Shown in pieces: positions 1-53,565 of a stretch of DNA of 53,565 nt; the first letter of the stretch is position 1, and each line of letters opens with the position of its first letter. The DNA lies in the IMG/VR virus record IMGVR_UViG_3300030463_000010; one strand, given 5' to 3'. The notes beneath the pieces are model-generated. The model searched no databases. It saw only the letters and a program-made list of their open reading frames with translations, and was not told where the DNA came from. This DNA comes from a virus. Position numbers and translations under genes: made by a program.

Positions 1-123
1 ATTACTGTTTCCATCTCGTCGGCGGTAAATAGTTTTCTGCTGAGGCTGTCAAGGTAAAATACCCGCAGTTCGTCGCGGCTCTTGTCCTTGTGGTGCAGTT
101 CGTAGTCATCAGCGTATTTGATA
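1..123. repeat. Terminal overlap: 1-123 is an exact copy of 53443-53565 (circular closure; unique length 53442 bp)
   Basis: Read directly: both ends read ATTACTGTTTCCATCTCGTCGG...CAGCGTATTTGATA. A minus-strand ORF stays in frame across the junction. Confidence 0.95.
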
Positions 124-281
124 TGGTGCCCATCGGCAAACACAAGAACGGAATATCCAAAATAGCCGCCAAAGTCCACAAAATAAATCTGGTGTCCTTT
201 AATCTCTGTGACCTCTATTGCCTTTGCTGCGGCCTGCGCTTCTGTCAGCGCTTCAATATCGCGGATCGTGTATTCTTTCAT
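1..281 (-). CDS. N-terminal part of a 250-aa hypothetical protein that continues across the circular junction into 52971-53442
   Basis: ATG at 281 with AGGAGGA 10 nt upstream (291-297 on the plus strand). Reads MKEYTIRDIEALTEAQ...FTADE, then in frame into METVINYQDK... at the other end of the window. Confidence 0.7.
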   Translation of the reverse strand, partial: MKEYTIRDIEALTEAQAAAKAIEVTEIKGHQIYFVDFGGYFGYSVLVFADGHHIKYADDYELHHKDKSRDELRVFYLDSLSRKLFTADEMETV

Positions 282-402
282 TTCTGTTTTCCTCCTTGTC
301 ATGGAGGGCCGCCCGTGGTATAATGGGCGTGCCCTGGTTTGGTGGTACTTGCTGGGGCTTCTCTTTGCCCTGGCCACTGTTGCGAGTAGTGGCCGGGGCT
401 TT

Positions 403-567
403 TTAATAGTCAATATATACGGTGTAATCTGTGGGGCTTGTCTTCCTGATCTTGTGTCCGCTGGCCTTGTCCAGCGCTAACCATGCGTCCCGCTCCTGTT
501 CACTCTGGTATGGCCTTCTACAATTCCATTCTTTGCGGTATTTGTAGATATATTGGATAATGCCCAT
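403..567 (-). CDS. small hypothetical protein (54 aa)
   Basis: ATG at 567 with GGAAGGG upstream. MGIIQYIYKYRKEWNCRRPYQSEQERDAWLALDKASGHKIRKTSPTDYTVYIDY. Below the 60-aa cutoff of the ORF track. Confidence 0.45.
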   Translation of the reverse strand: MGIIQYIYKYRKEWNCRRPYQSEQERDAWLALDKASGHKIRKTSPTDYTVYIDY

Positions 568-663
568 GTTTTTCCCTTCCGGTCTGTGGCCTTGCTTTCC
601 CCTGCCGGTTGTGTTATAGTGGGGGCGACATGTGGCAGGCCATGCCGCCCCGTGTTCTTTGTT

Positions 664-707
664 AGATAGCCGCTTACTTGTTCAGGGTAGGGCGGCTATC
701 TTTTTTT
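664..707 (+). terminator. intrinsic-terminator-like hairpin (15-bp stem, then T7) oriented for the plus strand
   Basis: AGATAGCCGCTTAC (664-677) pairs with GTAGGGCGGCTATCT (687-701), followed by TTTTTTT. It sits between two minus-strand genes. Confidence 0.5.
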
Positions 708-837
708 ACTGCTTGGGAATGGCTTCCCGGATAATGCGGGCCGCGTCCTGCGGGTCTTTGGCCGTGGCCTCTACCAGCTTCGCCAGGGTTTCAAGGTAAG
801 ATGCTAATTCGGTCTGGGTCATGCTATCAGTCTCCAT
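706..837 (-). CDS. small hypothetical protein (43 aa)
   Basis: ATG at 837 preceded by GGAGGTAAC. METDSMTQTELASYLETLAKLVEATAKDPQDAARIIREAIPKQ. First gene after the minus-strand promoter. Confidence 0.45.
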   Translation of the reverse strand: METDSMTQTELASYLETLAKLVEATAKDPQDAARIIREAIPKQ

Positions 838-889
838 TTCGTTACCTCCTGCCCGGTAGATTCAGCGCGGTTTCCCTTGCTGTGATTAT

Positions 890-918
890 ATAATAGCATA
901 CTTGCATTTACCTGTCAA
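890..918 (-). promoter_or_regulatory. sigma70-type promoter TTGACA-17-TATTAT driving the minus-strand island operon
   Basis: -35 at 918..913 and -10 at 895..890 on the minus strand, read directly. Confidence 0.55.
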
Positions 919-1095
919 TAAGTTAATACAAAATAATTTCAAGATTTTTTACAATTACAGGGGCGGAGGTGGGCCGGGGCCGGGGCGATGGTTAGCCAGT
1001 CAAGGCACACCGGAGGGGGATATTCGCCGGAATAATGTAGGTAGGTCAGTCCTGTCAGCACCGAAAATAGAAAAAAGGCTTGTTGCAAAAACATA

Positions 1096-1124
1096 TTGAC
1101 ATTTGCAAAAACAAATGATACAAT
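1096..1124 (+). promoter_or_regulatory. sigma70-type promoter TTGACA-17-TACAAT upstream of the recombinase/terL genes
   Basis: -35 at 1096-1101 and -10 at 1119-1124. The -35 is flanked by two TTGCAAAAACA direct repeats (1083-1093, 1103-1113). Confidence 0.6.
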
Positions 1125-1151
1125 AAGTGCAACAAGTAAGGGGTGAAAGAT

Positions 1152-1916
1152 ATGATGGAGTTCAAAAACGCCATTGGGTATATTCGGGTAAGCACGGAGG
1201 CTCAGGCCGCAGATGATAAATATGGCATTGAGGCGCAGAAGGAAAAGATACTGGCTTATGCGAACGATAATGGGTACAACATCGTCAAGTGGTTTTGCGA
1301 TGAAGAAAGCGGAACGAGTGACGAGAGGCCGGAGCTAAACAAAATACTGTATGACGAGGACATTTCTAATCCTCCGTTTGAGGCCGTGATTGCGTTCAAG
1401 AGCGACCGAGTGGCGAGGGACACCAAACTGTACTTCTACTATCTGTATGTCCTCGAAAAGCGGAACATTAAGTTGCTGAGTACGCAAGAGGTGTTCCCGG
1501 AAGGGGATTTTGCAAATATCTACCGTGCATTGATGCTATTCGTGGCGGAGCAGGAGAGAAAGAACATTGCACTCCGCACGGGAAACGGAAGGAAGATTAA
1601 GGCGGCTGCTGGAGGATATAGTGGCGGTCGTACTGCTTATGGGTATAAGGTTGATAATGGGCGGCTTGTTATCAACGAAGAAGAGCGCCCCATTGTGGAG
1701 TTTGTGTTTGCGGAACATAGGAAAGGCACACCGATGCTGACGATTGCCGACAAGCTGAATGACCTTGGCTATCGGACACGAAAGGGGACGAAGTTCCAGA
1801 ACACGAGCGTTCGGAGCATTATCAAGAATGAGCCGCTTTACCGTGGGATGTATAAGTATGGAGATATGAATTGGGTTAAGGGTGTGCATGAGCCTATTCT
1901 AAAGGAGGACGAATAA
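1152..1916 (+). CDS. serine recombinase with a truncated large-serine-recombinase layout (resolvase catalytic domain plus recombinase domain, no zinc-ribbon/coiled-coil)
   Basis: IGYIRVSTEAQ catalytic-serine motif and SDRVARD. Then GGRTAYGYKV...EERPIVEFVF...LNDLGYRTRKG...SVRSIIKNEPLYRG, ending right after GVHEPIL. ATG at 1152 is better spaced from AAGGGG than the GTG at 1143. Confidence 0.85.
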   Translation: MMEFKNAIGYIRVSTEAQAADDKYGIEAQKEKILAYANDNGYNIVKWFCDEESGTSDERPELNKILYDEDISNPPFEAVIAFKSDRVARDTKLYFYYLYVLEKRNIKLLSTQEVFPEGDFANIYRALMLFVAEQERKNIALRTGNGRKIKAAAGGYSGGRTAYGYKVDNGRLVINEEERPIVEFVFAEHRKGTPMLTIADKLNDLGYRTRKGTKFQNTSVRSIIKNEPLYRGMYKYGDMNWVKGVHEPILKEDE

Positions 1917-1992
1917 ATGACATACGGTGAGATTTTAGAAAATGCCACAGAAGAAGAACGGAGCCGGTGGTATGTAGCGGAGGCATTTAGAA

Positions 1993-3627
1993 ATGGAGAT
2001 AAAAACACTGGTAGTGAGGGCATTTCAGAGAGATTTGTCCGACCCATCTGCGCTATCTGATGCGTTTGATTCGATCAGGTTGTTGGAGCCGGAAGATTTT
2101 TCGCTGGCACACGAGCGGAACAAGGAGGTGCGGAGGATGTCTGCAAAATTTGCCGCAGAACAAAAAAGCCTCCGCATGTTCGAGCTAAACAAGCGGAGTC
2201 TGCTGTTTGATGCCCCGTATGATTTTGATGCTCATTGCAGGTACATAGAATGGAATAGGCCGAACGATAAGAGGTTTTATATTCCAAGAAGAAAGCAATT
2301 GCTTCGTGTAGCAAAATCCCTTCAAAAGCTGGCGGACGGAGATCTGGATCTGTTGGCTATCAGTTTGCCTCCTGGAGTTGGGAAAACTACATTAGCTCTG
2401 TTTTTCTTGACTTGGCTTGCTGGACGAAGCCCGGAAAAACCGATTCTTGGAGGTTCACACTCTAACGCATTTCTTCGGGGAGTATACGATGAATGTCTGC
2501 GAATTCTTGATCCGCAGGGAGAATATTTGTGGCATGATGTGTTCCCGACGGTACAGGTAGTAAAAACCAATGCACAAGATATGATGATTGACCTTGGAAC
2601 CGATAAGAAACGAGGAAAGAGGTTCGCGACACTGGAATTTAGCTCTATTGGATCTGGAAATGCTGGTAAGGTTCGAGCAGAGAACTTGCTTTATTGTGAT
2701 GACCTTGTTGACGGCCTGGAGTCTGCTCTCTCCAAGGAACGCATGGACAAGTTGTGGAATCTGTACGCAACCGATCTTAGACAGCGAAAGATTGGAGATG
2801 CCAGAGAACTCCATATTGCAACGAGGTGGTCTGTCCATGATGTTATTGGACGATTAGAGCAGATGTATGGGGAGAATGATAGAGCAGAATTTATCGTTGT
2901 ACCGGCGCTGGACGAAAACGATGAAAGCAATTTTGACTATGGAAACCATGCCGGATTTACCACAGCGTTTTACCATGAGCAACGGGATGTTATGGATGAT
3001 GCTTCTTGGCGAGCGTTATTCATGAATCAACCAATCGAGCGTGAAGGACAGCTCTACAATGAGGATGAGCTGCGCAGGTACTTTGAACTTCCTGACGGAA
3101 AACCAGATGCAGTTCTGTTTGTGTGCGATACGAAGGACAAGGGCACTGATTACTGCGTCATGCCGATTTGTTATCAGTACGGGAATGACTTTTATTGTGA
3201 AGACGTAGTATGTGACAACAGCAATCCAGAGGTTGTAGAGGCGCGGCTGGTGTCAAAACTACTTCAGCACAAGGCTCAGATGGGCCAGTTTGAAAGTAAC
3301 AGCGCTGGTGGTAAAGTAGCAGAAAAAGTTCAAAAAGAAGTGAAGGAAGCTGGCGGAATCGCAAAAATCACAACAAAATACACAACACAGGGGAAAGAGA
3401 CAAAGATCATAGTAAATTCCCCGTGGGTAAAAGAACGGGTTTTATTTAAGGACAATTCTATCATAAAGAAAGATAAGGAGTATCGCCGGATGCTAAACTT
3501 CCTATGCGGCTATACGATGGCTGGGAAAAATAAACATGACGATGTTCCTGATGCTTGGGCAATGTTTGCTGAGTATGTCCAGCAACTAGAAGGGAACAGG
3601 GTGGAGGTGTTCCGGCGCCCATTCTAA
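1993..3627 (+). CDS. terL: terminase large subunit
   Basis: 544 aa. Walker A-like LPPGVGKTT, Walker B-like LLYCDDLVD, C-terminal nuclease-type region. GGAGG 9 nt upstream. Confidence 0.9.
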   Translation: MEIKTLVVRAFQRDLSDPSALSDAFDSIRLLEPEDFSLAHERNKEVRRMSAKFAAEQKSLRMFELNKRSLLFDAPYDFDAHCRYIEWNRPNDKRFYIPRRKQLLRVAKSLQKLADGDLDLLAISLPPGVGKTTLALFFLTWLAGRSPEKPILGGSHSNAFLRGVYDECLRILDPQGEYLWHDVFPTVQVVKTNAQDMMIDLGTDKKRGKRFATLEFSSIGSGNAGKVRAENLLYCDDLVDGLESALSKERMDKLWNLYATDLRQRKIGDARELHIATRWSVHDVIGRLEQMYGENDRAEFIVVPALDENDESNFDYGNHAGFTTAFYHEQRDVMDDASWRALFMNQPIEREGQLYNEDELRRYFELPDGKPDAVLFVCDTKDKGTDYCVMPICYQYGNDFYCEDVVCDNSNPEVVEARLVSKLLQHKAQMGQFESNSAGGKVAEKVQKEVKEAGGIAKITTKYTTQGKETKIIVNSPWVKERVLFKDNSIIKKDKEYRRMLNFLCGYTMAGKNKHDDVPDAWAMFAEYVQQLEGNRVEVFRRPF

Positions 3628-3654
3628 AAACACAAAATATTGTATATAAATATA

Positions 3655-3682
3655 TTGATTTATCTATATATTGTGGTATAAT
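3655..3682 (+). promoter_or_regulatory. strong extended -10 promoter TTGATT-16-TGgTATAAT facing the non-coding RNA locus
   Basis: Read directly in the AT-rich spacer just after the terL stop (3625-3627). Confidence 0.65.
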
Positions 3683-3788
3683 ATATATGGAATAGGGTAC
3701 TTGCACTATACAATCTTGTCTTTCACCTCCTTCACACAACATATGGGGTGGTGGCGAAAACCACTGCCCCTGCTGTGTGGAACTCTAT

Positions 3789-3866
3789 GCCCTTGTAGCT
3801 CAGTAGGTAGAGCGGCCCAGGAATATGGGTGATTGAAGCGTCGCCGGTTCGAGTCCGGCCGGGGGC
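3789..3866 (+). tRNA. tRNA-like element with a non-canonical anticodon arm (6-nt loop GGAATA, 12-nt variable region)
   Basis: Acceptor GCCCTTG/CGGGGGC, D arm GCTC-AGTAGGTA-GAGC and T arm GCCGG-TTCGAGT-CCGGC are canonical. The anticodon stem GCCCA/TGGGT leaves only 6 loop nt. Confidence 0.5.
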
Positions 3867-4277
3867 TTGGCAACCCGCACCTTTCGCGGAGCCAATTTAA
3901 GCCGCCTCCTTGTGATGCCTCCCCACAATCCGGGGACAGGTAGTAACCTGGGGCAAACCGCAGGAATGCCTTTCGAGGCTGGCCCTGCAAAGCAGACCGC
4001 TCCAAAGGCCACGGAGCTGACACCCCGGAAAGACGGGGGCATGCGGAACATAGGCACCCCAAAAACGGGGAGGTCACAGCAAGCGAAGGGCACGCTGCTC
4101 TAAGTGCTAAAGCGGGGCAGGGCCGCGATGTTCCACCAGAGGCCGGGTCGCTCCCGGATGATCTGAGCGTAGCGCAATTCCTCAGAGAGAATGACAATGC
4201 CCGCTGAAAACTGCGCCAGAGTTCCGCAATCGGGGCCGATATACGGCGTGTGACAATTAAGCGGGAAGCGCACATAT

Positions 4278-4347
4278 ACGGGTGTAGCTCAATGGAGAGC
4301 GCCGGTCTCCAAAACCGGAGGTTGGGGGAACAGAGCCTTCCACCCGT
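4278..4347 (+). tRNA. tRNA-Trp(CCA)-like element with an aberrant T arm
   Basis: Acceptor ACGGGTG/CACCCGT is perfect, with D arm GCTC-AATGGA-GAGC and anticodon arm CCGGT-CTCCAAA-ACCGG. The T arm GGGGG-AACAGAG-CCTTC lacks the TTC motif. Confidence 0.55.
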
Positions 4348-4710
4348 GCCAGTGCCCTGCATGACAATGGTCTTGGTCCATATCACCTGAAAAGGCGATG
4401 GCGGCTTGCAACGCAGCGGGGCAATGATATGCCTCTCCTCGCCGCATGAGGCGGGCGGTGGCACCACGGCCCTCCCGTTTAGGGCGAAACGATATGCAGA
4501 TTGCGACGGCCTTATGGGCGAGGCGTTAATCACTGGAACGGCTTCCAGTGTCGCAAAAGCCGAAAACCATTGAGCGGTGGCGGAAAATGTAGACGCTTAC
4601 CGAGTAAGGCCATACTGGCGCCTGCGCCAGTCTCGACTGATTAGGCCATGTTAGGTGAAAATCCTCACCCGCTCAAATATGCCGCCCCGCAGTTGCGCGA
4701 GACGGGGACG

Positions 4711-4748
4711 GGAAAAGAACAGCCTGCCTTATAAAATAAAGCAGACTG
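4711..4748 (-). terminator. intrinsic terminator of the minus-strand 65-aa gene (weaker in the plus orientation)
   Basis: On the minus strand, CAGUCUGCUUU-AUUUUAU-AAGGCAGGCUG (11 bp including 2 G-U) is followed by UUCUUUUCC. Confidence 0.6.
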
Positions 4749-4763
4749 ATCTATTGTTGTTAT

Positions 4764-4961
4764 TTAAATTTCGATTTCGAGACGTTGCGCAATCTCTTCA
4801 ACGCTATACTTTTTAGATGCTTCCTCAAGAATTAACTGGATTTTTGCGGGTTTCAAAAGTGCTTCCTTTTCTGCTTGTAGTTTTTGAATTTGCGCATCAA
4901 TAGATTTTATTTTAGCCTCCGGGGAGCGGCTTCTCTTTTTAGTCACTTTGTTTTCGTCCAT
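4764..4961 (-). CDS. small coiled-coil protein (65 aa), hypothetical
   Basis: ATG with AAAGGAGGTG upstream. MDENKVTKKRSRSPEAKIKSIDAQIQKLQAEKEALL... Has its own promoter and terminator. Confidence 0.6.
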   Translation of the reverse strand: MDENKVTKKRSRSPEAKIKSIDAQIQKLQAEKEALLKPAKIQLILEEASKKYSVEEIAQRLEIEI

Positions 4962-4986
4962 AAAATCACCTCCTTTTATGTAAATT

Positions 4987-5015
4987 ATTATATTGCACTA
5001 ATAGCATAAATACAA
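4987..5015 (-). promoter_or_regulatory. sigma70-type promoter TTGTAT-17-TATAAT for the 65-aa gene
   Basis: -35 at 5015..5010 and -10 at 4992..4987 on the minus strand. Confidence 0.5.
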
Positions 5016-5042
5016 GGGGGGCTAGATGTCGATAATGGGGGT

Positions 5043-5219
5043 ATGTCAAAAGTGAAAGTGGATGTCTACTGTCCTATCTGTGCTGCTGCTGGTATCAATC
5101 ATGGCAAAGGGCGGCTTTTGATGCAGGTGGATAGCAAAACAACGGGTATAGTTTATCCATACTGCAAGGCTTGCAAGAAAAACATCAAGATTGATTTAAA
5201 TGGCGATAAAAGCGCCTGA
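5043..5219 (+). CDS. zinc-ribbon protein (58 aa), Com/cysteine-rich-KTR-like
   Basis: MSKVKVDVYCPICAAAG...GRLLMQV...YPYCKACKKNIKIDL has two CxxC pairs. GGGGG RBS. Below the ORF-track cutoff. Confidence 0.6.
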   Translation: MSKVKVDVYCPICAAAGINHGKGRLLMQVDSKTTGIVYPYCKACKKNIKIDLNGDKSA

Positions 5220-5231
5220 GAATTATAGTTT

Positions 5232-5279
5232 AGTGCCAAGTGCCAGGCCACTAGCTGGCCTCTAAGAGTGCCAAGTGCC
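5232..5279 (+). repeat. AGTGCC heptad array, site 1: AGTGCCAAGTGCC, a 6-bp hairpin, then AGTGCCAAGTGCC
   Basis: Copies at 5232-5244 and 5267-5279 flank the hairpin AGGCCA-CTAGC-TGGCCT. Lies 63 nt upstream of the portal start. Confidence 0.85.
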
Positions 5280-5341
5280 GATCAGTTACCGAGGAACCCT
5301 CGGTAGTTGGTCGGCATTTTTGCTGTTCTGGAGGTGATAAG

Positions 5342-13762: not shown

Positions 13763-13791
13763 ATTATACGGGATGACCGGATAGCTGTCAA
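13763..13791 (-). promoter_or_regulatory. perfect consensus sigma70 promoter TTGACA-17-TATAAT
   Basis: -35 at 13791..13786 and -10 at 13768..13763 on the minus strand. Confidence 0.7.
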
Positions 13792-35241: not shown

Positions 35242-36582
35242 TCACACATTTAAGGAATATTCTATGTGCCTATCAGGGTATATTTTGATTTCTTTGACAA
35301 TAATTCTCCAAAATTCTCGTTTTTCTTCGCGGTTGAGTCCGTCGTAAGATTCTTTCCAGTTTTCGGTTAACACCCTATCAATACTCTCGAAGTCTTGCTT
35401 TTGCTCAGGGAGTGCTGCTTTCTCCAAATCACTGATTTTTGCAAGCAATGCTTCACGGTCTGTCTTTAATTCTTCTAGTGTGATGATATCATTCAAATAT
35501 AAATCCTTCAGTTTGTTTAACTTTGACTTTGCAGCAGAGATTTCCGCACGTGACCTTTTGTTGATTTCCGCATTTTTGAGAGCGGAAAAGTTGGCCTTGT
35601 ATTCGTGAAATTTGTTGGCTACTGTCGCAAGAAGATACTCTTCAATTTTCCTTTCACCAAGATTAACGCGATTTTGGCATCCATTCTGCTTTGTATAGTG
35701 TCCGTTGCAATTGTAGAACACATACGTCTGCTTTGTGTTAATACGAGCACCCATCCTGTTGCCGCACTCCGGGCAAACCACTAATCCGGAAAACAGATAG
35801 GTACGATTATTCTTTGCCTTTCGGACAACCTTCCTCCGCATAGCTTGAATTTGTTCATGATCTTCTTTAGTGATATAGGCAGGACACATTCCGTCCATAT
35901 TGTAATATTTCCCATAATATGTAGTGCTGCGCAGCATCTTATCAATAAGATGGTATCTCATTAAAACACCATATTTTTCTCTGATAAATTCGGAAGTTTT
36001 AGAAATGGAACCGGAGGCTAAATACTTCTTAAAGAAATCGTTAACAAGAGCCTCTTTGGATTCGTCTTTTTTGAATGATTTTCCTTCAATTTTATAACCA
36101 AAAGGTATATTCCCGGTAAGAGGCTCCAACCGCGCCCGCTTTCCCTCAAAAACGAATTTGATACGCTCACTGGTCCGGTCTGCTTCATCTTGGGCAACGG
36201 ACAACATGATATTTACTTTCAGCCGCCCGGATGCGGTTGTCGTCTCATAATCCTCTTGTGTCGCCTGCCAAGATACACCATATTGATCTAGGATTTCCTG
36301 AACAGCATAGTAGTTCCCCACATTTCTAAACCATCGGTCCAGTTTTATAAACAATATCAGATCAATTTTTCCAACCCTGCAATCATCCAGAAGTTTTAGG
36401 AGTGCAGGGCGTTTCTTATATGGTTTTCTGGCGGAGATGCCAGCATCTTCATAGATGCCGACAATCTTCATTCCATGGGATTTTGAAAATTGGGTCAGAC
36501 TATTTTTTTGGTCTTCCAGAGACAAGCCATGCCGGGCTTGTTCTTCTGTACTAACCCTTATATATAATGCAGCTCGTTGCAT
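35242..36582 (-). CDS. int: large serine recombinase (integrase)
   Basis: 446 aa from the ATG at 36582 (AGGAGGTGGAG RBS). AALYIRVSTEEQ..., recombinase domain, zinc ribbon CPECGNRM...YNCNGHY, coiled coil. Confidence 0.9.
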   Translation of the reverse strand: MQRAALYIRVSTEEQARHGLSLEDQKNSLTQFSKSHGMKIVGIYEDAGISARKPYKKRPALLKLLDDCRVGKIDLILFIKLDRWFRNVGNYYAVQEILDQYGVSWQATQEDYETTTASGRLKVNIMLSVAQDEADRTSERIKFVFEGKRARLEPLTGNIPFGYKIEGKSFKKDESKEALVNDFFKKYLASGSISKTSEFIREKYGVLMRYHLIDKMLRSTTYYGKYYNMDGMCPAYITKEDHEQIQAMRRKVVRKAKNNRTYLFSGLVVCPECGNRMGARINTKQTYVFYNCNGHYTKQNGCQNRVNLGERKIEEYLLATVANKFHEYKANFSALKNAEINKRSRAEISAAKSKLNKLKDLYLNDIITLEELKTDREALLAKISDLEKAALPEQKQDFESIDRVLTENWKESYDGLNREEKREFWRIIVKEIKIYPDRHIEYSLNV

Positions 36583-36824
36583 AGCTCCACCTCCTAAGAT
36601 CACGCCGCCAGGTGATTCCTGACGGCGGCTTTTCACTAGAATGAAAACCTATCGTAAAAAGTAAAATTGTGGTATAAAAATAAAGACCACTAGATATAGG
36701 TCAATACAAAATATAAATGGAAAAAATTGTGAAAATCTGCTGATTGCCTTATATTATCCTCGGTGCTATGATATTATCAAATCACTAGAACAAATGTTCT
36801 TGAACGAGGAGGGGCAACTGGAAT

Positions 36825-36974
36825 ATGGATGAACGAGATATGACCTGCGGTGAATTGCTCTGTAGTGAGGACTACAACGAACGAGAGTTATTAATTAACA
36901 TGATATTAAATCTTAGCGAAGAAGAAATAAAACGAGTTATTGGTCTCTCTGGTCAATTACTTGTTCCACAATGA
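36825..36974 (+). CDS. small hypothetical ORF (49 aa) convergent with, and overlapping, the repressor 3' end
   Basis: GAGGAGGGG upstream but 11-nt spacing; overlap of 38 nt. Confidence 0.3.
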   Translation: MDERDMTCGELLCSEDYNERELLINMILNLSEEEIKRVIGLSGQLLVPQ

Positions 36975-37284
36975 TTCTGAGTTTATGAACATTTTCATCT
37001 GACATCTTATAAATGCAGCTTATAAGATATTTTTTCTCATCAGAAAGCCCGCTTCCAGATTTGGTGGCGGGTATTTCACTTTCATCATCCCATCCCATTA
37101 AATATATTGGAGATGTGCCAAGAGCTGATGCAAGTTTTGAAATAGTAGACCTTTTTAAATTTACAACAATATCAGTTTCATATTTGTTAATTGCAGCCTT
37201 TTTAACGCCAATCATTTTTCCAAGTTCCTCTTGAGACAATCCTTTGTTGATTCTTAAATTTTTTATTCTTTGCCCCGTTGTCAC
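36937..37284 (-). CDS. CI-like repressor (XRE-family HTH)
   Basis: 115 aa. TGQRIKNLRINKGLSQEELGKMIGVKKAAINKYE. Divergent from the cro-like gene. Confidence 0.85.
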   Translation of the reverse strand: MTTGQRIKNLRINKGLSQEELGKMIGVKKAAINKYETDIVVNLKRSTISKLASALGTSPIYLMGWDDESEIPATKSGSGLSDEKKYLISCIYKMSDENVHKLRIIVEQVIDQRDQ

Positions 37285-37347: not shown

Positions 37348-37364
37348 ATATCTTGACAAGAAAC
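37348..37364. promoter_or_regulatory. degenerate operator dyad ATATCT-N5-AGAAAC overlapping the -35
   Basis: Two mismatches relative to GTATCT-N5-AGATAC. Confidence 0.4.
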
Positions 37365-37380
37365 CGGAATGTGCTATAAT
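37353..37380 (+). promoter_or_regulatory. early rightward promoter TTGACA-16-TGcTATAAT
   Basis: Read directly. Overlapped and flanked by operator-like dyads. Confidence 0.7.
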
Positions 37381-50712: not shown

Positions 50713-50931
50713 ATGCAGTACAATGAAATCTATCCTTTGCTAAAACATGCGATTAAGTGGCTTCAGGAAAACTATCCGCACGACACGTATTTTGTCATCA
50801 ACTCAAACAGCGCGACGATGTATCACAAAATGGGCATTTTTGCAATGAATGGAGTTGAGTCAGACAACGGAACAAACAAATATACGGCAGAACAGATATT
50901 GGAAATAACAAAGAAAGCATTTGAGGCTTGA
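50713..50931 (+). CDS. hypothetical protein (72 aa)
   Basis: GAGGAGGTG RBS. Confidence 0.6.
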   Translation: MQYNEIYPLLKHAIKWLQENYPHDTYFVINSNSATMYHKMGIFAMNGVESDNGTNKYTAEQILEITKKAFEA

Positions 50932-50956
50932 CAGGTTGGAAGTTCTATTGTATGAT
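50928..50956 (+). promoter_or_regulatory. sigma70-type promoter TTGACA-17-TATGAT upstream of the terS region
   Basis: Read directly. Confidence 0.55.
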
Positions 50957-51120
50957 ATAAAAGGGGATATATAAGAAAAAATGAGATATAGTAATCCTGC
51001 ATGGGAGCCTTACTTCAAAAACATCTCTCCTATCCTATCAAAACTCTACTTTCTGACCAACTCAGGGACTATCAGATACATTGTTGCGACTATGATCTTC
51101 AAGAAGAAGTTCTTTCTCGA

Positions 51121-51435
51121 ATGGAGGAACGAACATTGGACTTAACAAAATATGAAATGGAAACTATCTACAACTACAATCAGGAAGATCCTCTTGCCTC
51201 CTGCTACACGATGGACCGTGCCCTGATCCGCCGCTTAGATGTACTTGCCGAAAAACACAAAGAAATTACTTTACTTAGAAGTGGTGAAGGAATGAGGGAA
51301 TATACTTTCCCCAAGAAGTGGATTAAAGTCCGCGCTCCAAAGGAACTATCGGAAGAACAGCGGGAAAACATGGCAAAGAGAGCAAGAGAGAGGTTTGGGT
51401 TTGCGAAGGAAGGTGACAACTCTGAACAAGAATGA
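51121..51435 (+). CDS. hypothetical protein (104 aa) immediately upstream of terS (the usual position of late activators)
   Basis: First ATG with plausible context in the track ORF 51001-51435. No HTH recognised. Confidence 0.5.
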   Translation: MEERTLDLTKYEMETIYNYNQEDPLASCYTMDRALIRRLDVLAEKHKEITLLRSGEGMREYTFPKKWIKVRAPKELSEEQRENMAKRARERFGFAKEGDNSEQE

Positions 51436-51442
51436 TGCGACT

Positions 51443-51982
51443 ATGGAGCAGGGGAAGGAACTCGTTAAGCGGAAGATGAAACCCCGTGGTGGGAACTCTC
51501 CTGTGATTGGAGATAACGGCGTACATACCAAACCGGGTGACAACTCCAAGATTGCCGGGTTCCTTATGGAAGTCGGAAAGTGGGGCCCTGTTGATAAGTC
51601 CGATGTTCAGGCTATGGAAAAGCGATTTTGGGACTATGTTTCACTCTGCTTTGAAAGGGATGTTCGTGTCACAAACCAGGTAGCTTACTTTGCTATGGGT
51701 ATCACCCGCGATGATGTTTACGACTGGGAAAATGGACGTTCACGCAGTCCAGAACATTCCGCCCTCATTAAAAAAGTGAAGATTTTTTGTGGTTCTTACC
51801 GTGAAATGTTAGGGGCTGATGGCAAGCTCAACCCTGTTACTCTGGTCTGGTGGCAAAAGAACTATGACGGCCTTGTGGACAAGTCCGAAGTGGTGCTCAC
51901 GCCCAACAACCCGTTAGGGACTATTGCTGACCAAAAGCAGCTTGAAGAGCGGATCGCCGGCTCTGTGGTGGTGGAGGAGTAA
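51443..51982 (+). CDS. terS: terminase small subunit
   Basis: 179 aa. ...VAYFAMGITRDDVYDWENG... (HTH-like) and NPVTLVWWQKNYDGLVDK, typical of TerS. Start is uncertain (TTG 51395 is the alternative). Confidence 0.7.
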   Translation: MEQGKELVKRKMKPRGGNSPVIGDNGVHTKPGDNSKIAGFLMEVGKWGPVDKSDVQAMEKRFWDYVSLCFERDVRVTNQVAYFAMGITRDDVYDWENGRSRSPEHSALIKKVKIFCGSYREMLGADGKLNPVTLVWWQKNYDGLVDKSEVVLTPNNPLGTIADQKQLEERIAGSVVVEE

Positions 51983-51983
51983 A

Positions 51984-52088
51984 CGACTATTAGCGACTAT
52001 TTCAGGAACTTTCTGGAAGTCAAACAACTATAAAACGACTTTTTGGAGGCTACGACTATGGATGAAACTCTGGAAGACCAGCGACTAT
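51984..52088 (+). repeat. CGACTAT repeat cluster (4 exact plus 2 near copies): candidate pac/TerS recognition region
   Basis: Exact copies at 51984, 51994, 52053 and 52082. Variants are CAACTAT at 52025 and CGACTTT at 52036. Confidence 0.55.
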
Positions 52089-52246
52089 GCCCGTTAATGG
52101 ATTTGGCCCGTGTGGTGGCTCTGGGCGCTTCCTGCGGGCGGGCCTCCGTCGAGTTGGAGGCCATCCAATGCAAAGGCGGCTCCTGCGCCTGGTGGGACGC
52201 TGACAAAAACTGTTGCGCCGTCCTCTCCCTGGCCCGGAACAAATGA
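52058..52246 (+). CDS. small Cys-rich protein (62 aa)
   Basis: GGAGG RBS. CPLMD...C...CKGGSCAWWD...CCAV. Confidence 0.55.
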   Translation: MDETLEDQRLCPLMDLARVVALGASCGRASVELEAIQCKGGSCAWWDADKNCCAVLSLARNK

Positions 52247-52251
52247 CAATG

Positions 52252-52290
52252 CCCCGGCTTGCTCCTGACGGAGTGGGCCGGGGTTGCTTT
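52252..52290 (+). terminator. terminator-like hairpin
   Basis: CCCCGGC (52252-52258) pairs with GCCGGGG (52277-52283), then TTGCTTT. Confidence 0.4.
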
Positions 52291-52382
52291 ATGCCTTGTG
52301 TGGCGCTGCGCGGGCCTCTGTACGGCGTTTTGTGGCGTGAGAATATAGGGACACTGCTAGAAGAAAAAATGCCGTGTAGAGC

Positions 52383-52415
52383 CTGTAAATGCTCTTTACA
52401 GCGGTTTTTCTTTTT
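52383..52415 (+). terminator. intrinsic terminator
   Basis: CTGTAAA-TGCTC-TTTACAG, then CGG and TTTTTCTTTTT. Confidence 0.55.
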
Positions 52416-52523
52416 GGGGCTTGTTCCGCTCTGCTGAACATGGGCGCAAAAATGACGCCTGCGGGCCACTGGAGGGCCTACAAGCGGCGGGGCGATGGCG
52501 TGGAGTATATAGGAGGCATGGGC

Positions 52524-52557
52524 AAGAGAAAACCCGCCCCAGAAAGCCCAGGACGGG
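52524..52557 (-). terminator. terminator of the minus-strand island operon
   Basis: On the minus strand, CCCGUCC...GGGCGGG (including G-U) is followed by UUUUCUCU. Confidence 0.45.
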
Positions 52558-52569
52558 CACTGGCGGTAT

Positions 52570-52635
52570 TCAAGATTTTTTCGCCGTCTCCCAGATAATC
52601 ATAATCGGGAGCAGCAGGATAAACAGAATAATCAA
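52570..52635 (-). CDS. 21-aa hydrophobic peptide (LIILFILLLPIMIIWETAKKS), speculative
   Basis: TTG start 8 nt after GGAGGTG. Last ORF before the minus-strand terminator. Confidence 0.3.
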   Translation of the reverse strand: MIILFILLLPIMIIWETAKKS

Positions 52636-52667
52636 GCGGGGGTCACCTCCATTCTCCGGCGGGCGGG

Positions 52668-52955
52668 TCAAAAGCGGGTGATTTCCTGCCCCTCGCTGGC
52701 CACGCAGGGAAGAAATGTTCCCAGGCGGGCCGGGTCTGTAAACAGGTTATAGCCGTCAATGCCCACGAACTGGGCAATTTCCACGACGTCCCCGTGTGCG
52801 TCCTTGTTGATGTAGCGGCGCAGGGTGTAGGCTCTGCCCTCGTAGATGTACCGCCCGCCGTCCTGATAGTAGGCGTTGGCCTCGTCCAGCGTGGCGGCGG
52901 CGATCTCGTCAACGGTCATTGTCAGCCGCCCGGCGGCGTCTCTGTATCGTTTCAT
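52668..52955 (-). CDS. hypothetical protein (95 aa)
   Basis: ATG with GGAGGG-like RBS. Co-oriented with the junction-spanning gene. Confidence 0.65.
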   Translation of the reverse strand: MKRYRDAAGRLTMTVDEIAAATLDEANAYYQDGGRYIYEGRAYTLRRYINKDAHGDVVEIAQFVGIDGYNLFTDPARLGTFLPCVASEGQEITRF

Positions 52956-52970: not shown

Positions 52971-53565
52971 TTAGTAAAGTTCGGCGCTCTGCTTGCTATA
53001 TTCGCGCCGCGCGGCCATGTATGCGGCCCGCTGCACGTCGCTAAAGTTGCAGGCATCGAAAAACGCGTTGAGATCGTCGATATTTGCCACGCCGGAGCAG
53101 TTGCCGAAGCAAGAACACACGTCAAAATCGGCTTGCCAGTTTATACCGTATTCGTGATTAAACATCTCACGGAGAAATGCGTCTTTCCAGTATTCCGCAT
53201 GATCCTTTTCGGGCTCGGCTTTTTCAAGCGTGGAAAGAAGGCTTTCCCCGATTTTCACAAAATCAGCGTCCTTTTGGTCGTAGTACGCCATAAATACGGG
53301 GCTGAAAATCATAGTTTTGATTTTCTTTTTCAGTTTTTCCCGCTCCTGATCTGGGCCGCAGAAAAACATGGAAATGTGGTCCCGGCGCAGTCCGTAGTAA
53401 TTGCGGATGTAGTATTCTTTCGTTTGCTTGTCCTGGTAGTTGATTACTGTTTCCATCTCGTCGGCGGTAAATAGTTTTCTGCTGAGGCTGTCAAGGTAAA
53501 ATACCCGCAGTTCGTCGCGGCTCTTGTCCTTGTGGTGCAGTTCGTAGTCATCAGCGTATTTGATA
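52971..53565 (-). CDS. C-terminal part of the 250-aa junction-spanning hypothetical protein (same gene as 1-281)
   Basis: The frame is open to the window end and in phase with 1-281 through the 123-bp overlap. Confidence 0.7.
   Translation of the reverse strand, partial: IKYADDYELHHKDKSRDELRVFYLDSLSRKLFTADEMETVINYQDKQTKEYYIRNYYGLRRDHISMFFCGPDQEREKLKKKIKTMIFSPVFMAYYDQKDADFVKIGESLLSTLEKAEPEKDHAEYWKDAFLREMFNHEYGINWQADFDVCSCFGNCSGVANIDDLNAFFDACNFSDVQRAAYMAARREYSKQSAELY
53443..53565. repeat. Second copy of the 123-bp terminal overlap
   Basis: Identical to 1-123. Confidence 0.95.

What the first reader, a model, noticed from the sequence alone, without database searches (positions are those of the whole stretch)
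1..1992. terS and terL are separated by a ~3.1 kb island spanning the circular junction, with terminators and divergent consensus promoters
Seen in sequence:
- terS (51443-51982) and a 62-aa Cys-rich gene are followed by two plus-strand terminators (52252-52290, 52383-52415).
- Next comes a minus-strand operon with five ORFs. These are a 43-aa gene (706-837), a 54-aa gene (403-567), a 250-aa junction-spanning gene (281 through the junction to 52971), a 95-aa gene (52668-52955) and a 21-aa hydrophobic peptide.
- That operon has its own TTGACA-17-TATTAT promoter (890-918) and a terminator (52524-52557).
- Divergently, TTGACA-17-TACAAT (1096-1124) drives a recombinase gene followed directly by terL.

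Established knowledge: small and large terminase genes are normally adjacent and co-transcribed.

Inference: an accessory cassette has inserted into the packaging module, and terL and everything downstream may now depend on the recombinase promoter. This is an unusual wiring of late-gene expression.
Basis: partly seen in the sequence, partly recalled or inferred. Interest (0 to 1): 0.7.

Follow-up and report, generated by a model that had tools for sequence, protein, structure and literature searches.

The report
Variable accessory region inside phage packaging module
The genes that split this gut phage's two DNA-packaging genes are not a fresh insertion but a swap-prone accessory region shared by the whole phage lineage, and it holds a short recombinase that is found at this same spot, just before the large packaging gene, in at least 72 other viral contigs.

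Summary
terS (51443-51982) and terL (1993-3627) lie 3.45 kb apart across a 123-nt assembly overlap. All five leftward ORFs, both near-consensus divergent promoters and the main terminators are present.

This is not a recent insertion:
- All 61 IMG/VR relatives and all 14 bacterial-genome prophages that hold both genes keep them 2.7-6.7 kb apart. None has them adjacent.
- The content is mosaic. p250, p95, p54 and the recombinase vary between relatives.
- A scaffold is conserved: the promoter, leader and 43-aa gene; a 21-aa membrane peptide; and non-coding linkers.

Two of those linkers are composite promoter-hairpin-terminator units on the opposite strand. They look like antisense small RNAs and act as exchange points.

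The 257-aa serine recombinase has catalytic and recombinase domains but no zinc ribbon. It belongs to a family that sits between terS and terL, with terL a median 864 nt downstream, in 72 of 79 other viral contigs. It is 71-76% identical where TerL is only 35-59% identical.

HMM and fold searches gave no function for the other island proteins. Whether terL depends on the recombinase promoter is untested; plus-strand terminators elsewhere suggest read-through.

The parts
1..123 (.). Exact copy of 53443-53565: the assembly overlap that marks a circular or terminally repeated contig, not a biological junction
   Evidence: the sequence is contiguous in L003 and other contigs
50928..50956 (+). Promoter-like site TTGACA-17-TATGAT ahead of the 144-aa gene and terS
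51001..51435 (+). 144-aa gene upstream of terS (phrog_1709, function unknown)
   Evidence: 85-93% identical in many relatives
51443..51982 (+). Small terminase subunit (terS). Its body exists as several alleles about 40% identical; the 5' edge and the C-terminal tail DQKQLEERIAGSVVVEE are shared
   Evidence: phrog_606 E 2e-8; GP3_package in 7 of 10 family members; alleles
52058..52246 (+). 62-aa Cys-rich gene directly after terS; the position is conserved but the sequence varies (39-72% identity)
   Evidence: no family hit
52248..52570 (.). Conserved non-coding module A (about 35 loci, 75-86% identity). It holds the plus-strand hairpin 52251-52284 (-30.5 kcal/mol), the weak hairpin 52383-52415 and the minus-strand terminator 52558-52532
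   Evidence: little covariation outside the first hairpin
52570..52635 (-). 21-aa hydrophobic peptide MIILFILLLPIMIIWETAKKS, the last gene of the leftward operon
   Evidence: intact, 21 aa, with only conservative changes in at least 29 loci
52668..52955 (-). 95-aa variable cassette gene, function unknown
   Evidence: in 7 of the relatives' loci; 62 database homologues; model pLDDT 92, no PDB match
52971..53442 (-). 250-aa variable cassette gene, 3' part (continues at 281-1)
   Evidence: model pLDDT 91.7, no PDB fold match; weak DUF7659 match
1..281 (-). 250-aa variable cassette gene, 5' part
296..405 (+). Module B: plus-strand promoter TTGTCA-17-TATAAT (296-324), then a transcribed stretch of about 75 nt ending in hairpin 367-399 plus T5. 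Candidate antisense small RNA and cassette linker
   Evidence: The 15-bp hairpin is kept in 18 of 18 sequences, with 4 U-G positions and 2 compensatory pairs on the + strand. Alignment fold -37.5 on + versus -19.2 kcal/mol on -
403..567 (-). 54-aa variable cassette gene, function unknown
   Evidence: only in L003 and L032
592..708 (+). Module C: plus-strand promoter TTGCTT-17-TATAGT (592-620), a hairpin with conserved loop UGGCAGGC, and terminator hairpin 664-701 plus T7. Candidate antisense small RNA and cassette linker
   Evidence: promoter invariant in 25 distinct copies; three compensating stem variants; terminator replaced by an unrelated hairpin plus T-run in some loci
706..837 (-). 43-aa gene, the first gene of the leftward operon, with a highly conserved leader (838-889)
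   Evidence: 91-100% identical in about 30 loci; leader alignment; weak DpnD/PcfM-like match only
890..918 (-). Leftward promoter TTGACA-17-TATTAT. The hexamers are conserved while the spacer varies among 21 distinct relatives
902..1133 (+). Divergent control region that travels with the recombinase gene. It holds three same-strand copies of TTGCAWWWAC (902, 1083, 1103), an AT-rich block, a GC-rich block with GGGGGATAT and an A-tract
   Evidence: these are the only 3 matches in the window; the same architecture lies upstream of family members in unrelated contexts
1096..1124 (+). Rightward promoter TTGACA-17-TACAAT ahead of the recombinase
1143..1916 (+). 257-aa serine recombinase: catalytic domain plus recombinase domain, no zinc-ribbon or coiled-coil domain
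   Evidence: family of more than 1,100 proteins of about 255 aa; placed between terS and terL in 72 of 79 viral contigs
1993..3627 (+). Large terminase subunit (terL), 76 nt after the recombinase with no terminator between
   Evidence: phrog_38 E 1e-56
5275..5317 (+). 20-bp hairpin plus T-run, 24 nt before the portal gene (5342); bears on how late genes are transcribed
   Evidence: -34.6 kcal/mol

Best explanation
The stretch between terS and terL is this phage's version of a lineage-wide, swap-prone accessory region built into the packaging module of temperate siphoviruses of gut Oscillospirales. It has three units.

1. The tail of the terS transcription unit: a Cys-rich 62-aa gene and a conserved non-coding block of about 330 nt with hairpins.

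2. A leftward, self-contained operon.
- Its two ends are conserved: promoter, leader and 43-aa gene at the start; 21-aa membrane peptide and terminator at the end.
- Its interior holds interchangeable cassettes, here the 54-, 250- and 95-aa genes.
- The cassettes are separated by conserved composite promoter-hairpin-terminator units that face the other way.
- Inferred: these units make short antisense RNAs and stop plus-strand transcription from running into the operon.
- Shown by the mosaic pattern: they are the points at which cassettes are exchanged by homologous recombination.
- Inferred: the operon is expressed from the prophage, as morons are.

3. A conserved cassette made of the divergent control region and a serine recombinase of about 255 aa. 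This cassette is found at the same place, just upstream of terL, in many other phages. The recombinase promoter can read into terL (shown: no terminator between them).

Inferred for late expression: full late expression of terL, portal and the rest more likely comes from terminator read-through of a late transcript started upstream of terS.
For: Separation is universal:
- 61 of 61 IMG/VR loci, 2.7-6.7 kb.
- 14 of 14 bacterial-genome prophages, including isolate Flavonifractor sp. An92.
- Clostridium phage Maintenon, which has 12 small genes and 2 tRNAs between the two genes.

Mosaic with conserved linkers:
- blastn coverage alternates between segments shared by 25-38 loci (52200-52650, 258-400, 558-900) and segments shared by 2-16 loci.
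- L003 is 100% identical from p95 to terL but its terS is only 39% identical. L038 has terS at 99% with terL at 76%.

Conserved scaffold: p43 with its leader and promoter hexamers, and the 21-aa peptide.

Opposite-strand units:
- Promoters are invariant.
- Stems show compensatory and U-G changes that fit only the + strand.
- The terminator is replaced by a non-homologous one in some loci.

Promoter enrichment: 4 of the genome's 6 best sigma-70 matches lie here.

Recombinase cassette:
- terL lies downstream in 72 of 79 contigs, median 864 nt, and terS lies 1.8-4.8 kb upstream.
- The same layout occurs in L083, L152, L154, L157 and L158.
- The recombinase is 71-76% identical where TerL is 35-59% and TerS 27-33% identical.
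- The upstream region is conserved along with the gene.

Gap content in relatives fits a defence and counter-defence hotspot: Mrr-type nuclease, RtcB, DUF551 and small resolvases.

Precedents:
- In Pseudomonas phage JBD26, Tab (minus strand, own promoter) and anti-Tab (right after terS) lie between the two terminase genes (PMC10884400).
- Variable genes lie between TerS and TerL in a Heliusvirales subfamily (bioRxiv 10.64898/2026.05.11.724261).
Against: - No expression data exist. All promoters, terminators and small RNAs are sequence predictions.
- None of the leftward-operon proteins has a recognisable function, so 'prophage-expressed moron' is argued from architecture only.
- The leftward operon is not universal. 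In the largest group of recombinase-carrying contigs the terS-to-recombinase interval holds plus-strand genes.
- About 60% of close relatives have no recombinase in the gap, so it is dispensable.
- Module A shows little covariation; its conservation is unexplained.
- My ORF calling in relatives was crude and includes spurious ORFs.
Confidence: 0.7

Rival explanations
1. One reading: a single accessory cassette recently inserted between formerly adjacent terS and terL, leaving terL and the late genes dependent on the recombinase promoter.
For: - The content differs between close relatives.
- A strong promoter-like site lies at 1096-1124, with no terminator before terL.
- Plus-strand hairpins follow terS.
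Against: - No relative has adjacent genes: 0 of 61 and 0 of 14.
- The window's gap (3.45 kb) is among the shorter ones.
- Scaffold elements are conserved lineage-wide.
- No flanking direct or inverted repeats were found.
- The portal gene is preceded by its own strong hairpin and a separate variable zone, so 'everything downstream' cannot hang on this promoter alone.
Confidence: 0.1
2. The recombinase and its upstream site form a Cre/loxP-like module. It sits next to the packaging start so that its site falls within the terminal redundancy of packaged DNA. The injected linear genome could then be circularised, or concatemers resolved, without host recombination.
For: - The position between terS and terL is fixed across phages whose terminases have diverged to 35% identity.
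- The phage already has a full-length serine integrase next to its repressor for lysogeny.
- A co-travelling upstream region has three same-strand repeats found nowhere else in the genome.
- Two unrelated recombinase types occupy the same slot, each with its own promoter-region repeats.
- The P22 gp3-type TerS suggests headful packaging.
- The P1 analogy is from my own knowledge, not from a tool.
Against: - The recombinase is dispensable in most close relatives.
- The family also occurs in a non-phage chromosomal context.
- No crossover site was identified.
- The packaging mode and the genome ends are unknown.
- The phage has a Sak4-type annealase that could do the job.
Confidence: 0.2
3. The recombinase cassette is a selfish mobile unit that spreads between phages and lands upstream of terL, alongside the homing-endonuclease-like genes seen there in relatives. 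It would bring no benefit to the phage.
For: - It is much better conserved than the backbone: 71-76% against 35-59% for TerL.
- Presence and absence are patchy among close relatives.
- A chromosomal copy exists outside any phage.
- A protein with a GIY-YIG-like N-terminal motif (read by eye; Pfam matched only an HTH domain) and Cys-rich endonuclease-like genes share the slot.
Against: - No target-site duplications or terminal repeats were found.
- The catalytic motifs are intact and the family is very large and uniform in length, which fits purifying selection for a function.
- Exchange through conserved flanks explains the mobility without site-specific transposition.
Confidence: 0.2
4. The conserved intergenic units B and C are not small-RNA genes. 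They would be structured leaders or processing sites of the leftward mRNA, or simply recombination linkers.
For: - They lie directly upstream of the ribosome-binding sites of leftward genes.
- CCUCC...GGAGG ahead of the 250-aa gene could mask its ribosome-binding site.
- Unit C folds about equally well on both strands in the window itself.
Against: - U-G pairs, which would be A-C mismatches on the other strand, are kept at four positions of the unit B hairpin in 16-17 of 18 sequences.
- T-runs follow the hairpins only on the + strand.
- A non-homologous hairpin plus T-run replaces the unit C terminator in some loci.
- The -35 and -10 hexamers, spacing and TG motif are invariant.
Confidence: 0.3
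5. The terS call is wrong and the true small terminase lies next to terL.
For: The window's own protein has no Pfam hit and only a modest PHROG match.
Against: - 7 of 10 family members hit GP3_package.
- The homologue in phage Maintenon is annotated as the small terminase.
- The invariant C-terminal tail across divergent alleles fits a TerL-contact segment.
- The only genes next to terL are the recombinase and an overlapping 47-aa ORF with no hits.
- The genes next to terL differ between relatives.
Confidence: 0.04

Closest known systems
Tab / anti-Tab moron locus of Pseudomonas phage JBD26 (PMC10884400)
   Same: [quoted passage not shown]
- One gene lies on the opposite strand with its own promoter, so it can be made from the prophage.
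- One small gene lies on the late strand right after terS.
- Presence varies among phages whose terminases are more than 90% identical.
   Different: - No sequence relation was shown.
- Here the region is 3-6 kb, holds many cassettes, is present in every relative, and carries conserved linkers and a recombinase.
- The function of the leftward genes is unknown.
Variable genes between TerS and TerL in Candidatus Heliusvirales vSUBFAM7 (bioRxiv 10.64898/2026.05.11.724261)
   Same: Gut Clostridia prophages with a variable set of genes, differing in site and content, inside the packaging module.
   Different: - The window lacks ORFs long enough to be the Heliusvirales markers DNA polymerase I and SNF2 helicase (no ORF above 354 aa in 39-50 kb; markers listed in PMC9226167).
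- That preprint reports metabolic genes, not the scaffold, the linkers or the recombinase.
PeSL composite promoter-terminator motifs of T4-like phages (PMC2839356, PMC4122927)
   Same: Short conserved promoter-plus-stem-loop units flank variable ORFs in a hyperplastic region and mark the exchange points between otherwise unrelated sequences.
   Different: - PeSLs face the same way as the ORFs they flank and occur in lytic myoviruses of Gram-negative hosts.
- Here the units face against the flanked genes and enclose about 75-85 nt, so they would produce antisense RNAs.
Lambda OOP RNA and similar cis-antisense phage RNAs (own knowledge)
   Same: A transcript of about 77 nt with its own promoter and intrinsic terminator, made opposite to an mRNA and overlapping the end of a gene.
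   Different: - No homology.
- Here there are two such units per operon and they are exchangeable modules.
- Expression has not been shown.
Large serine recombinases (phage integrases such as A118, TP901-1, Bxb1) and Tn3/gamma-delta resolvase with its res site
   Same: - The catalytic domain has the RVST and DRxxR motifs.
- The recombinase domain aligns with that of the A118 integrase.
- As with tnpR/res, the gene sits beside a divergent promoter region that carries repeated motifs.
   Different: - The protein ends after the recombinase domain, with no zinc ribbon or coiled coil. These define large serine recombinases and are needed for att-site synapsis.
- It has no C-terminal helix-turn-helix of the resolvase type.
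- No three-subsite res was recognised.
P1 Cre/loxP (own knowledge)
   Same: A site-specific recombinase and its site are kept close to the packaging start of a headful phage.
   Different: - Cre is a tyrosine recombinase.
- Here no site, no terminal redundancy and no activity have been shown.

Membership tests
Phage moron (Juhala/Hendrix sense) | Gene(s) present in some phages and absent from close relatives | tested here: met
   Among the relatives' loci, p250 is in 16, p95 in 7, p54 in 2 and this recombinase in 5 of the close set
Phage moron (Juhala/Hendrix sense) | Own promoter and terminator flanking the gene(s) | tested here: met
   Promoter at 918-890 and terminator at 52558-52532 by consensus scan; the promoter hexamers are conserved in 21 relatives
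Phage moron (Juhala/Hendrix sense) | Inserted between two genes that are adjacent in related phages | tested here: not met
   terS and terL are never adjacent in 75 related loci
Phage moron (Juhala/Hendrix sense) | Expressed from the repressed prophage | not testable with these tools
   Needs transcript data from a lysogen
Large serine recombinase (phage integrase type) | N-terminal catalytic domain with the nucleophilic serine | tested here: met
   PF00239 E 2e-25; YIRVST and SDRVAR motifs
Large serine recombinase (phage integrase type) | Recombinase domain | tested here: met
   PF07508 E 8e-10; aligns with A118 integrase chain 4kis residues 22-110
Large serine recombinase (phage integrase type) | Zinc-ribbon domain with coiled coil | tested here: not met
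   The protein ends at residue 257, matching phrog_95 positions 82-347 of 651. The whole family is about 253-260 aa. The window's true integrase is 464 aa
Small serine recombinase (resolvase/invertase) | C-terminal helix-turn-helix directly after the catalytic domain; length about 180-210 aa | tested here: not met
   257 aa with a recombinase domain instead. Relatives carry a separate resolvase type of about 200 aa in the same slot
Invertible DNA switch (inverton) | Inverted repeats flanking a segment next to the recombinase, with both orientations seen | tested here: not met
   No inverted repeat longer than 12 nt around the island. Every relative has the same orientation
Small terminase, P22 gp3-like (PF16677) | Profile match over the DNA-binding and oligomerisation region | tested here: met
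   7 of 10 family members match, best E 1.7e-9. The window's own protein falls below the reporting limit but matches phrog_606
Candidatus Heliusvirales | Nine marker genes including DNA polymerase I, SNF2-like helicase, VRR-NUC nuclease, DUF2800 and DUF2815 (PMC9226167) | tested here: inconclusive
   No ORF long enough for PolA or an SNF2 helicase in the replication region, and the recombination gene is Sak4-like. I did not run the marker HMMs
cis-antisense small RNA | Own promoter and intrinsic terminator on the strand opposite an mRNA | tested here: met
   Units B and C
cis-antisense small RNA | The transcript is detected | not testable with these tools
   No RNA data; no Rfam family matches
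Type I toxin-antitoxin | Small hydrophobic toxin peptide | tested here: met
   Conserved 21-aa peptide with a charged C-terminus
Type I toxin-antitoxin | Antisense RNA overlapping the toxin mRNA | tested here: inconclusive
   No promoter-like site was found facing the peptide gene in module A, and module A shows little covariation
Known anti-phage defence systems (PADLOC) | Profile match of any island protein | tested here: not met
   0 hits for all six window proteins. In relatives only the Mrr-type nuclease matches

The most novel reading that the evidence does not exclude
A family of more than a thousand serine recombinases of about 255 aa (catalytic plus recombinase domain, no zinc ribbon) forms, with its co-travelling control region, a dedicated part of the packaging module of many gut Clostridia phages. 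It would work like Cre/loxP of P1. Its site lies just downstream of the packaging start, so it is duplicated in the terminal redundancy of packaged DNA. The recombinase would then circularise the injected genome, or resolve concatemers, independently of host recombination. In the same region, opposite-strand promoter-terminator units would act both as antisense RNA valves and as the joints for cassette exchange.
Probability: 0.2. Interest if true: 0.7.

Novelty: new variant of a known kind. Interest (0 to 1): 0.5.

Why it matters
- Packaging modules are treated as the most stable, co-transcribed part of tailed-phage genomes and are used as anchors for annotation and classification. Here a whole lineage of abundant gut prophages keeps a 3-6 kb exchangeable region inside that module.
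- The region has a defined scaffold and defined exchange joints. That makes it a good place to look for new prophage-encoded defence or counter-defence genes.
- It also shows that 'terS next to terL' is a poor annotation rule for these phages.
- The fixed position of a short serine recombinase just before terL in at least 72 other viral contigs is not explained by current knowledge. It points to a testable role in genome circularisation or resolution.
- Short serine recombinases with small sites could also be of interest as genome-engineering tools.

Tried and rejected
- **Inverted or direct repeats bounding the island (inverton or att scars).** None longer than 12-13 nt, which is chance level.
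- **Rfam.** Only two tRNAs at gathering score, plus one sub-threshold hit (anti-hemB, 20 bits against a cut-off of 49.5) over unit B.
- **HMM searches of all island proteins** in Pfam, PHROGs, NCBIfam and PADLOC.
  - Only sub-threshold hints: DUF7659 for p250; DpnD/PcfM for p43; SH3_7 and YHYH for p95.
  - No anti-restriction or ICE family was found.
- **Structure models.**
  - p250 (pLDDT 91.7) and p95 (pLDDT 92.0) have no PDB match at E below 0.3.
  - BFVD gives only a 58%-identical homologue of p250 labelled 'Queuosine biosynthesis protein'. Nothing I ran supports that label.
- **Module A as a structured RNA.** The consensus fold has almost no covariation beyond the invariant first hairpin.
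- **Module A as the TerS-specific packaging site.** It recombines independently of the terS allele: the window and L003 share module A but have different terS, while the window and L038 share terS but have different module A.
- **The conserved element upstream of the rightward promoter (ACACCGG.GGGGGAT) as a universal late promoter.** It is present in only about 12 loci and is tied to the recombinase/HTH cassettes.
- **Heliusvirales membership.** Marker-sized genes are absent.
- **A 192-aa leftward gene in relatives as ToxN/AbiQ-like.** This was my recollection; no Pfam or PADLOC hit supports it.
- **MAFFT alignment of the unit C hairpin for pair counting.** The alignment shifted register, so I describe the stem variants from single-sequence folds instead.
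- **One context look-up failed for lack of capacity** and was repeated.

Full report
**1. What is in the sequence**

The window is a 53,442-nt unit with an exact 123-nt repeat at both ends. The 'circular junction' is therefore an assembly overlap. Reading across it gives an uninterrupted 250-aa ORF on the minus strand. The same gene is contiguous in independent contigs: L003 at 100% identity and 15 others at 80-87%.

- terS at 51443-51982
- a 62-aa Cys-rich gene at 52058-52246
- on the minus strand, a 43-aa gene (706-837), a 54-aa gene (403-567), the 250-aa gene, a 95-aa gene (52668-52955) and a 21-aa hydrophobic peptide (52570-52635)

The two divergent promoter-like sites are 11/12 matches with a TG extension. 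The main plus-strand hairpin after the Cys-rich gene and the minus-strand terminator are picked up by the scan. The second plus-strand 'terminator' is weak.

The promoter clustering is more than chance. The whole genome has only six sites with at least 11 of 12 matches, and four lie between 50928 and 1124.

**2. Gene identities**

- terL matches phrog_38 at E 1e-56.
- The terS call is sound.
  - It matches phrog_606 at E 2e-8.
  - Seven of ten diverse family members hit Pfam GP3_package.
  - The homologue in Clostridium phage Maintenon is annotated as the small terminase.
  - terS alleles that are only about 40% identical share the tail DQKQLEERIAGSVVVEE.
- The recombinase has the serine-recombinase catalytic domain and the 'recombinase' domain of large serine recombinases, and stops there at 257 aa.
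- It is not the phage's integrase. A 464-aa serine integrase lies next to the repressor at 35242-37284.
- The other island proteins have no significant match in Pfam, PHROGs, NCBIfam or PADLOC.
- Confident models of the 250-aa and 95-aa proteins (pLDDT 91.7 and 92.0) match nothing in the PDB.
- The suspected anti-restriction or ICE families are not supported.

**3. Relatives: the separation is a lineage trait**

A scan of IMG/VR with TerL returned 80 loci at 64-100% identity.
- In all 61 loci that hold both genes, terS and terL are 2.7-6.7 kb apart (median about 5 kb). The window's 3.45 kb is on the short side.
- The same is true of 14 prophages in bacterial genomes. These are mostly Oscillospirales and include the isolate Flavonifractor sp. 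An92.
- The nearest cultured phage, Maintenon (TerL 44%), has twelve small genes and two tRNAs between the two.

There are none.

**4. Mosaic interior, conserved scaffold**

DNA coverage along the region alternates sharply.
- The body of terS, the Cys-rich gene, and the 95-, 250- and 54-aa genes and the recombinase are each shared with only 2-16 loci.
- The stretches 52200-52650, 258-400 and 558-900 are shared with 25-38 loci.
- Exchange is evident. L003 is identical from the 95-aa gene to terL but has a terS only 39% identical. L038 has terS at 99% with terL at 76%.

The conserved parts form a frame for the leftward operon:
- the promoter hexamers, with a variable spacer, and an almost invariant leader and 43-aa gene at its start
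- the 21-aa peptide with only conservative substitutions, in at least 29 loci, at its end

In relatives the variable slots hold an Mrr-type nuclease, RtcB, DUF551 proteins, small resolvases and Cys-rich endonuclease-like proteins. One has a GIY-YIG-like N-terminal motif. I read that motif by eye; Pfam matched only an HTH domain in it. This is the kind of content seen in defence and counter-defence hotspots.

**5. The intergenic linkers face the other way**

Two of the conserved linkers (296-405 and 592-708) share one design on the plus strand, opposite to the genes they separate. Each has a promoter, about 75-85 nt with a 5' hairpin, and a strong hairpin followed by a T-run.

Unit C:
- The promoter is invariant in 25 distinct copies.
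- The 5' hairpin has an invariant loop (UGGCAGGC) on three different, mutually compensating stems.
- In several loci the terminator is replaced by an unrelated hairpin that again ends in a T-run.

Unit B:
- The 15-bp terminator stem is kept in all 18 distinct sequences.
- Four positions are U-G on the plus strand, which would be mismatches on the minus strand.
- Two pairs have compensatory changes.
- The alignment folds at -37.5 kcal/mol on the plus strand against -19.2 on the minus strand.

No Rfam family matches. I read these units as antisense small-RNA genes that also insulate the leftward operon from plus-strand transcription. The mosaic pattern shows they are also the joints at which cassettes are exchanged. 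They resemble the PeSL promoter-terminator motifs of T4-like phages (PMC2839356, PMC4122927) except for their orientation. Their expression is not shown.

**6. The recombinase belongs with the packaging module**

- The family has more than 1,100 clusters of 253-260 aa at 70% identity or more.
- Six genomic contexts were sampled from public assemblies. Five show the same order: terS (GP3_package), accessory genes (often a leftward operon), a divergent region, the recombinase, 0-2 small genes, terL, an SPP1-type portal.
- The sixth context is chromosomal, without phage genes.
- A scan of IMG/VR with the recombinase gave 79 further loci. terL lies downstream on the same strand in 72, at 155-2976 nt (median 864).
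- The other seven contigs end within 2.3 kb of the recombinase.
- terS lies 1.8-4.8 kb upstream wherever there is room.
- The recombinase is 71-76% identical in phages whose TerL is 35-59% and whose TerS is 27-33% identical to the window's.
- About 300 nt upstream travel with the gene and keep their architecture.
  - This stretch holds both promoters, an AT-rich block, a GC-rich block and an A-tract.
  - It also holds three same-strand copies of TTGCAWWWAC. In the window these are the only three matches to that pattern.
- In the window's own clade the slot is filled by this recombinase in 5 loci, by an unrelated resolvase of about 200 aa in about 21 loci, and by nothing in the rest. In at least three further distinct loci that resolvase is preceded by a related upstream element. 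The gene is therefore dispensable and replaceable, yet position-bound.

**7. How terL is expressed**

Nothing terminator-like lies in the 76 nt between the recombinase and terL, so the recombinase promoter can reach terL. The late strand is nevertheless studded with hairpin-plus-T-run signals:
- two after terS
- two inside the leftward operon
- a 20-bp stem (-34.6 kcal/mol) 24 nt before the portal gene, with no promoter between

terL is also followed by a second variable zone with its own promoter and two tRNAs. Portal expression must therefore involve terminator read-through. The simplest inference is that a late transcript starting upstream of terS reads through the whole region, running antisense to the leftward operon. 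This is inference only, and transcript mapping would settle it.

**8. Comparison with what is known**

- Accessory genes between the terminase genes are documented in Pseudomonas phage JBD26.
  - The defence gene tab lies on the minus strand with its own promoter.
  - Its antidote lies on the late strand right after terS (PMC10884400).
- A 2026 preprint notes variable genes between TerS and TerL in a Heliusvirales subfamily (10.64898/2026.05.11.724261). The window does not appear to be a Heliusvirales phage, because marker-sized replication genes are missing (markers in PMC9226167).

The general phenomenon is therefore known. Four text searches, which cover only part of the literature, turned up no description of the following:
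- the conserved scaffold
- the opposite-strand linker units
- the fixed association of a zinc-ribbon-less serine recombinase with the terS-terL interval

**9. Verdict**

- Observation: confirmed.
- Interpretation: partly supported. The region is accessory and mosaic, but it is not a recent insertion, and the claimed rewiring is untested.
- Best explanation: a lineage-wide exchangeable accessory region with a defined frame, plus a packaging-linked recombinase cassette of unknown role.
- Most novel reading not excluded: a Cre/loxP-like circularisation or resolution module kept within the terminal redundancy (probability about 0.2).

Noticed in passing
window 3655-4650: About 1 kb of GC-rich non-coding DNA follows terL. 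It has its own promoter-like site (3655-3682) and two tRNAs. One is a tRNA-Trp (CCA) at 4278-4348, found by Rfam but missed by ARAGORN. The other, at 3789-3867, has an oversized anticodon region that ARAGORN could not assign. The zone from terL to the portal gene (3650-5050) is a second hypervariable region in relatives.
   Followed up: partly
window 5048-5218 and 5275-5317: A 57-aa protein with two CxxC pairs (zinc-ribbon-like). After it comes a 20-bp hairpin plus T-run, only 24 nt before the portal start codon. The region is conserved in about 40 relatives.
   Followed up: partly
window 51395-51450 and 51900-51982: terS exists as several alleles about 30-45% identical in phages with near-identical neighbours. 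The first few codons and the last 17 residues (DQKQLEERIAGSVVVEE) are shared, so the gene body itself is an exchangeable cassette.
   Followed up: partly
window 52285-52530: Non-coding block conserved in about 35 loci, including invariant motifs such as GGA-ATATA-GGG-ACAC and GCGCAAAAATGCCGCC. It shows little RNA covariation and does not track the terS allele. L011 and L042 carry two or three ORF-like copies spaced about 264 nt apart, which suggests tandem repeats of this block. Its function is unexplained.
   Followed up: partly
window 13763-13791 (-) and 37353-37380 (+): The only two perfect 12/12 sigma-70 consensus sites in the genome. The second lies beside the repressor gene and is probably the early lytic promoter. 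The first is inside the structural region on the opposite strand.
   Followed up: no
L085 8001-8777 and L086: A recombinase of the same family (73% identical) with the same upstream architecture sits in a bacterial chromosome between a rhamnosidase gene and a polysaccharide deacetylase gene, with no phage genes nearby.
   Followed up: partly
L152, L157, L158 (leftward operons between terS and the recombinase): In other phage lineages the leftward operon at this position repeatedly carries an FtsK/SpoIIIE-like ATPase of about 220-250 aa, and in L152 and L158 also a GP88-family protein.
   Followed up: no
L008-L010, just after the recombinase: A 175-aa membrane-anchored protein with an Mrr-type restriction-endonuclease domain (Pfam E 7e-32; it also matches the nuclease end of Zorya ZorD). 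It follows the recombinase in three close relatives. Other relatives carry RtcB RNA ligase just before terL.
   Followed up: partly
BFVD entry A0A8S5V079: The only structural match of the 250-aa protein is a 58%-identical viral homologue labelled 'Queuosine biosynthesis protein'. No HMM or fold result here supports that name.
   Followed up: partly
L134, L141, L151: Prophage contigs of this Clostridia phage lineage are filed under Bacteroidaceae or Prevotella metagenome bins. These are probably binning errors rather than a real host jump.
   Followed up: no
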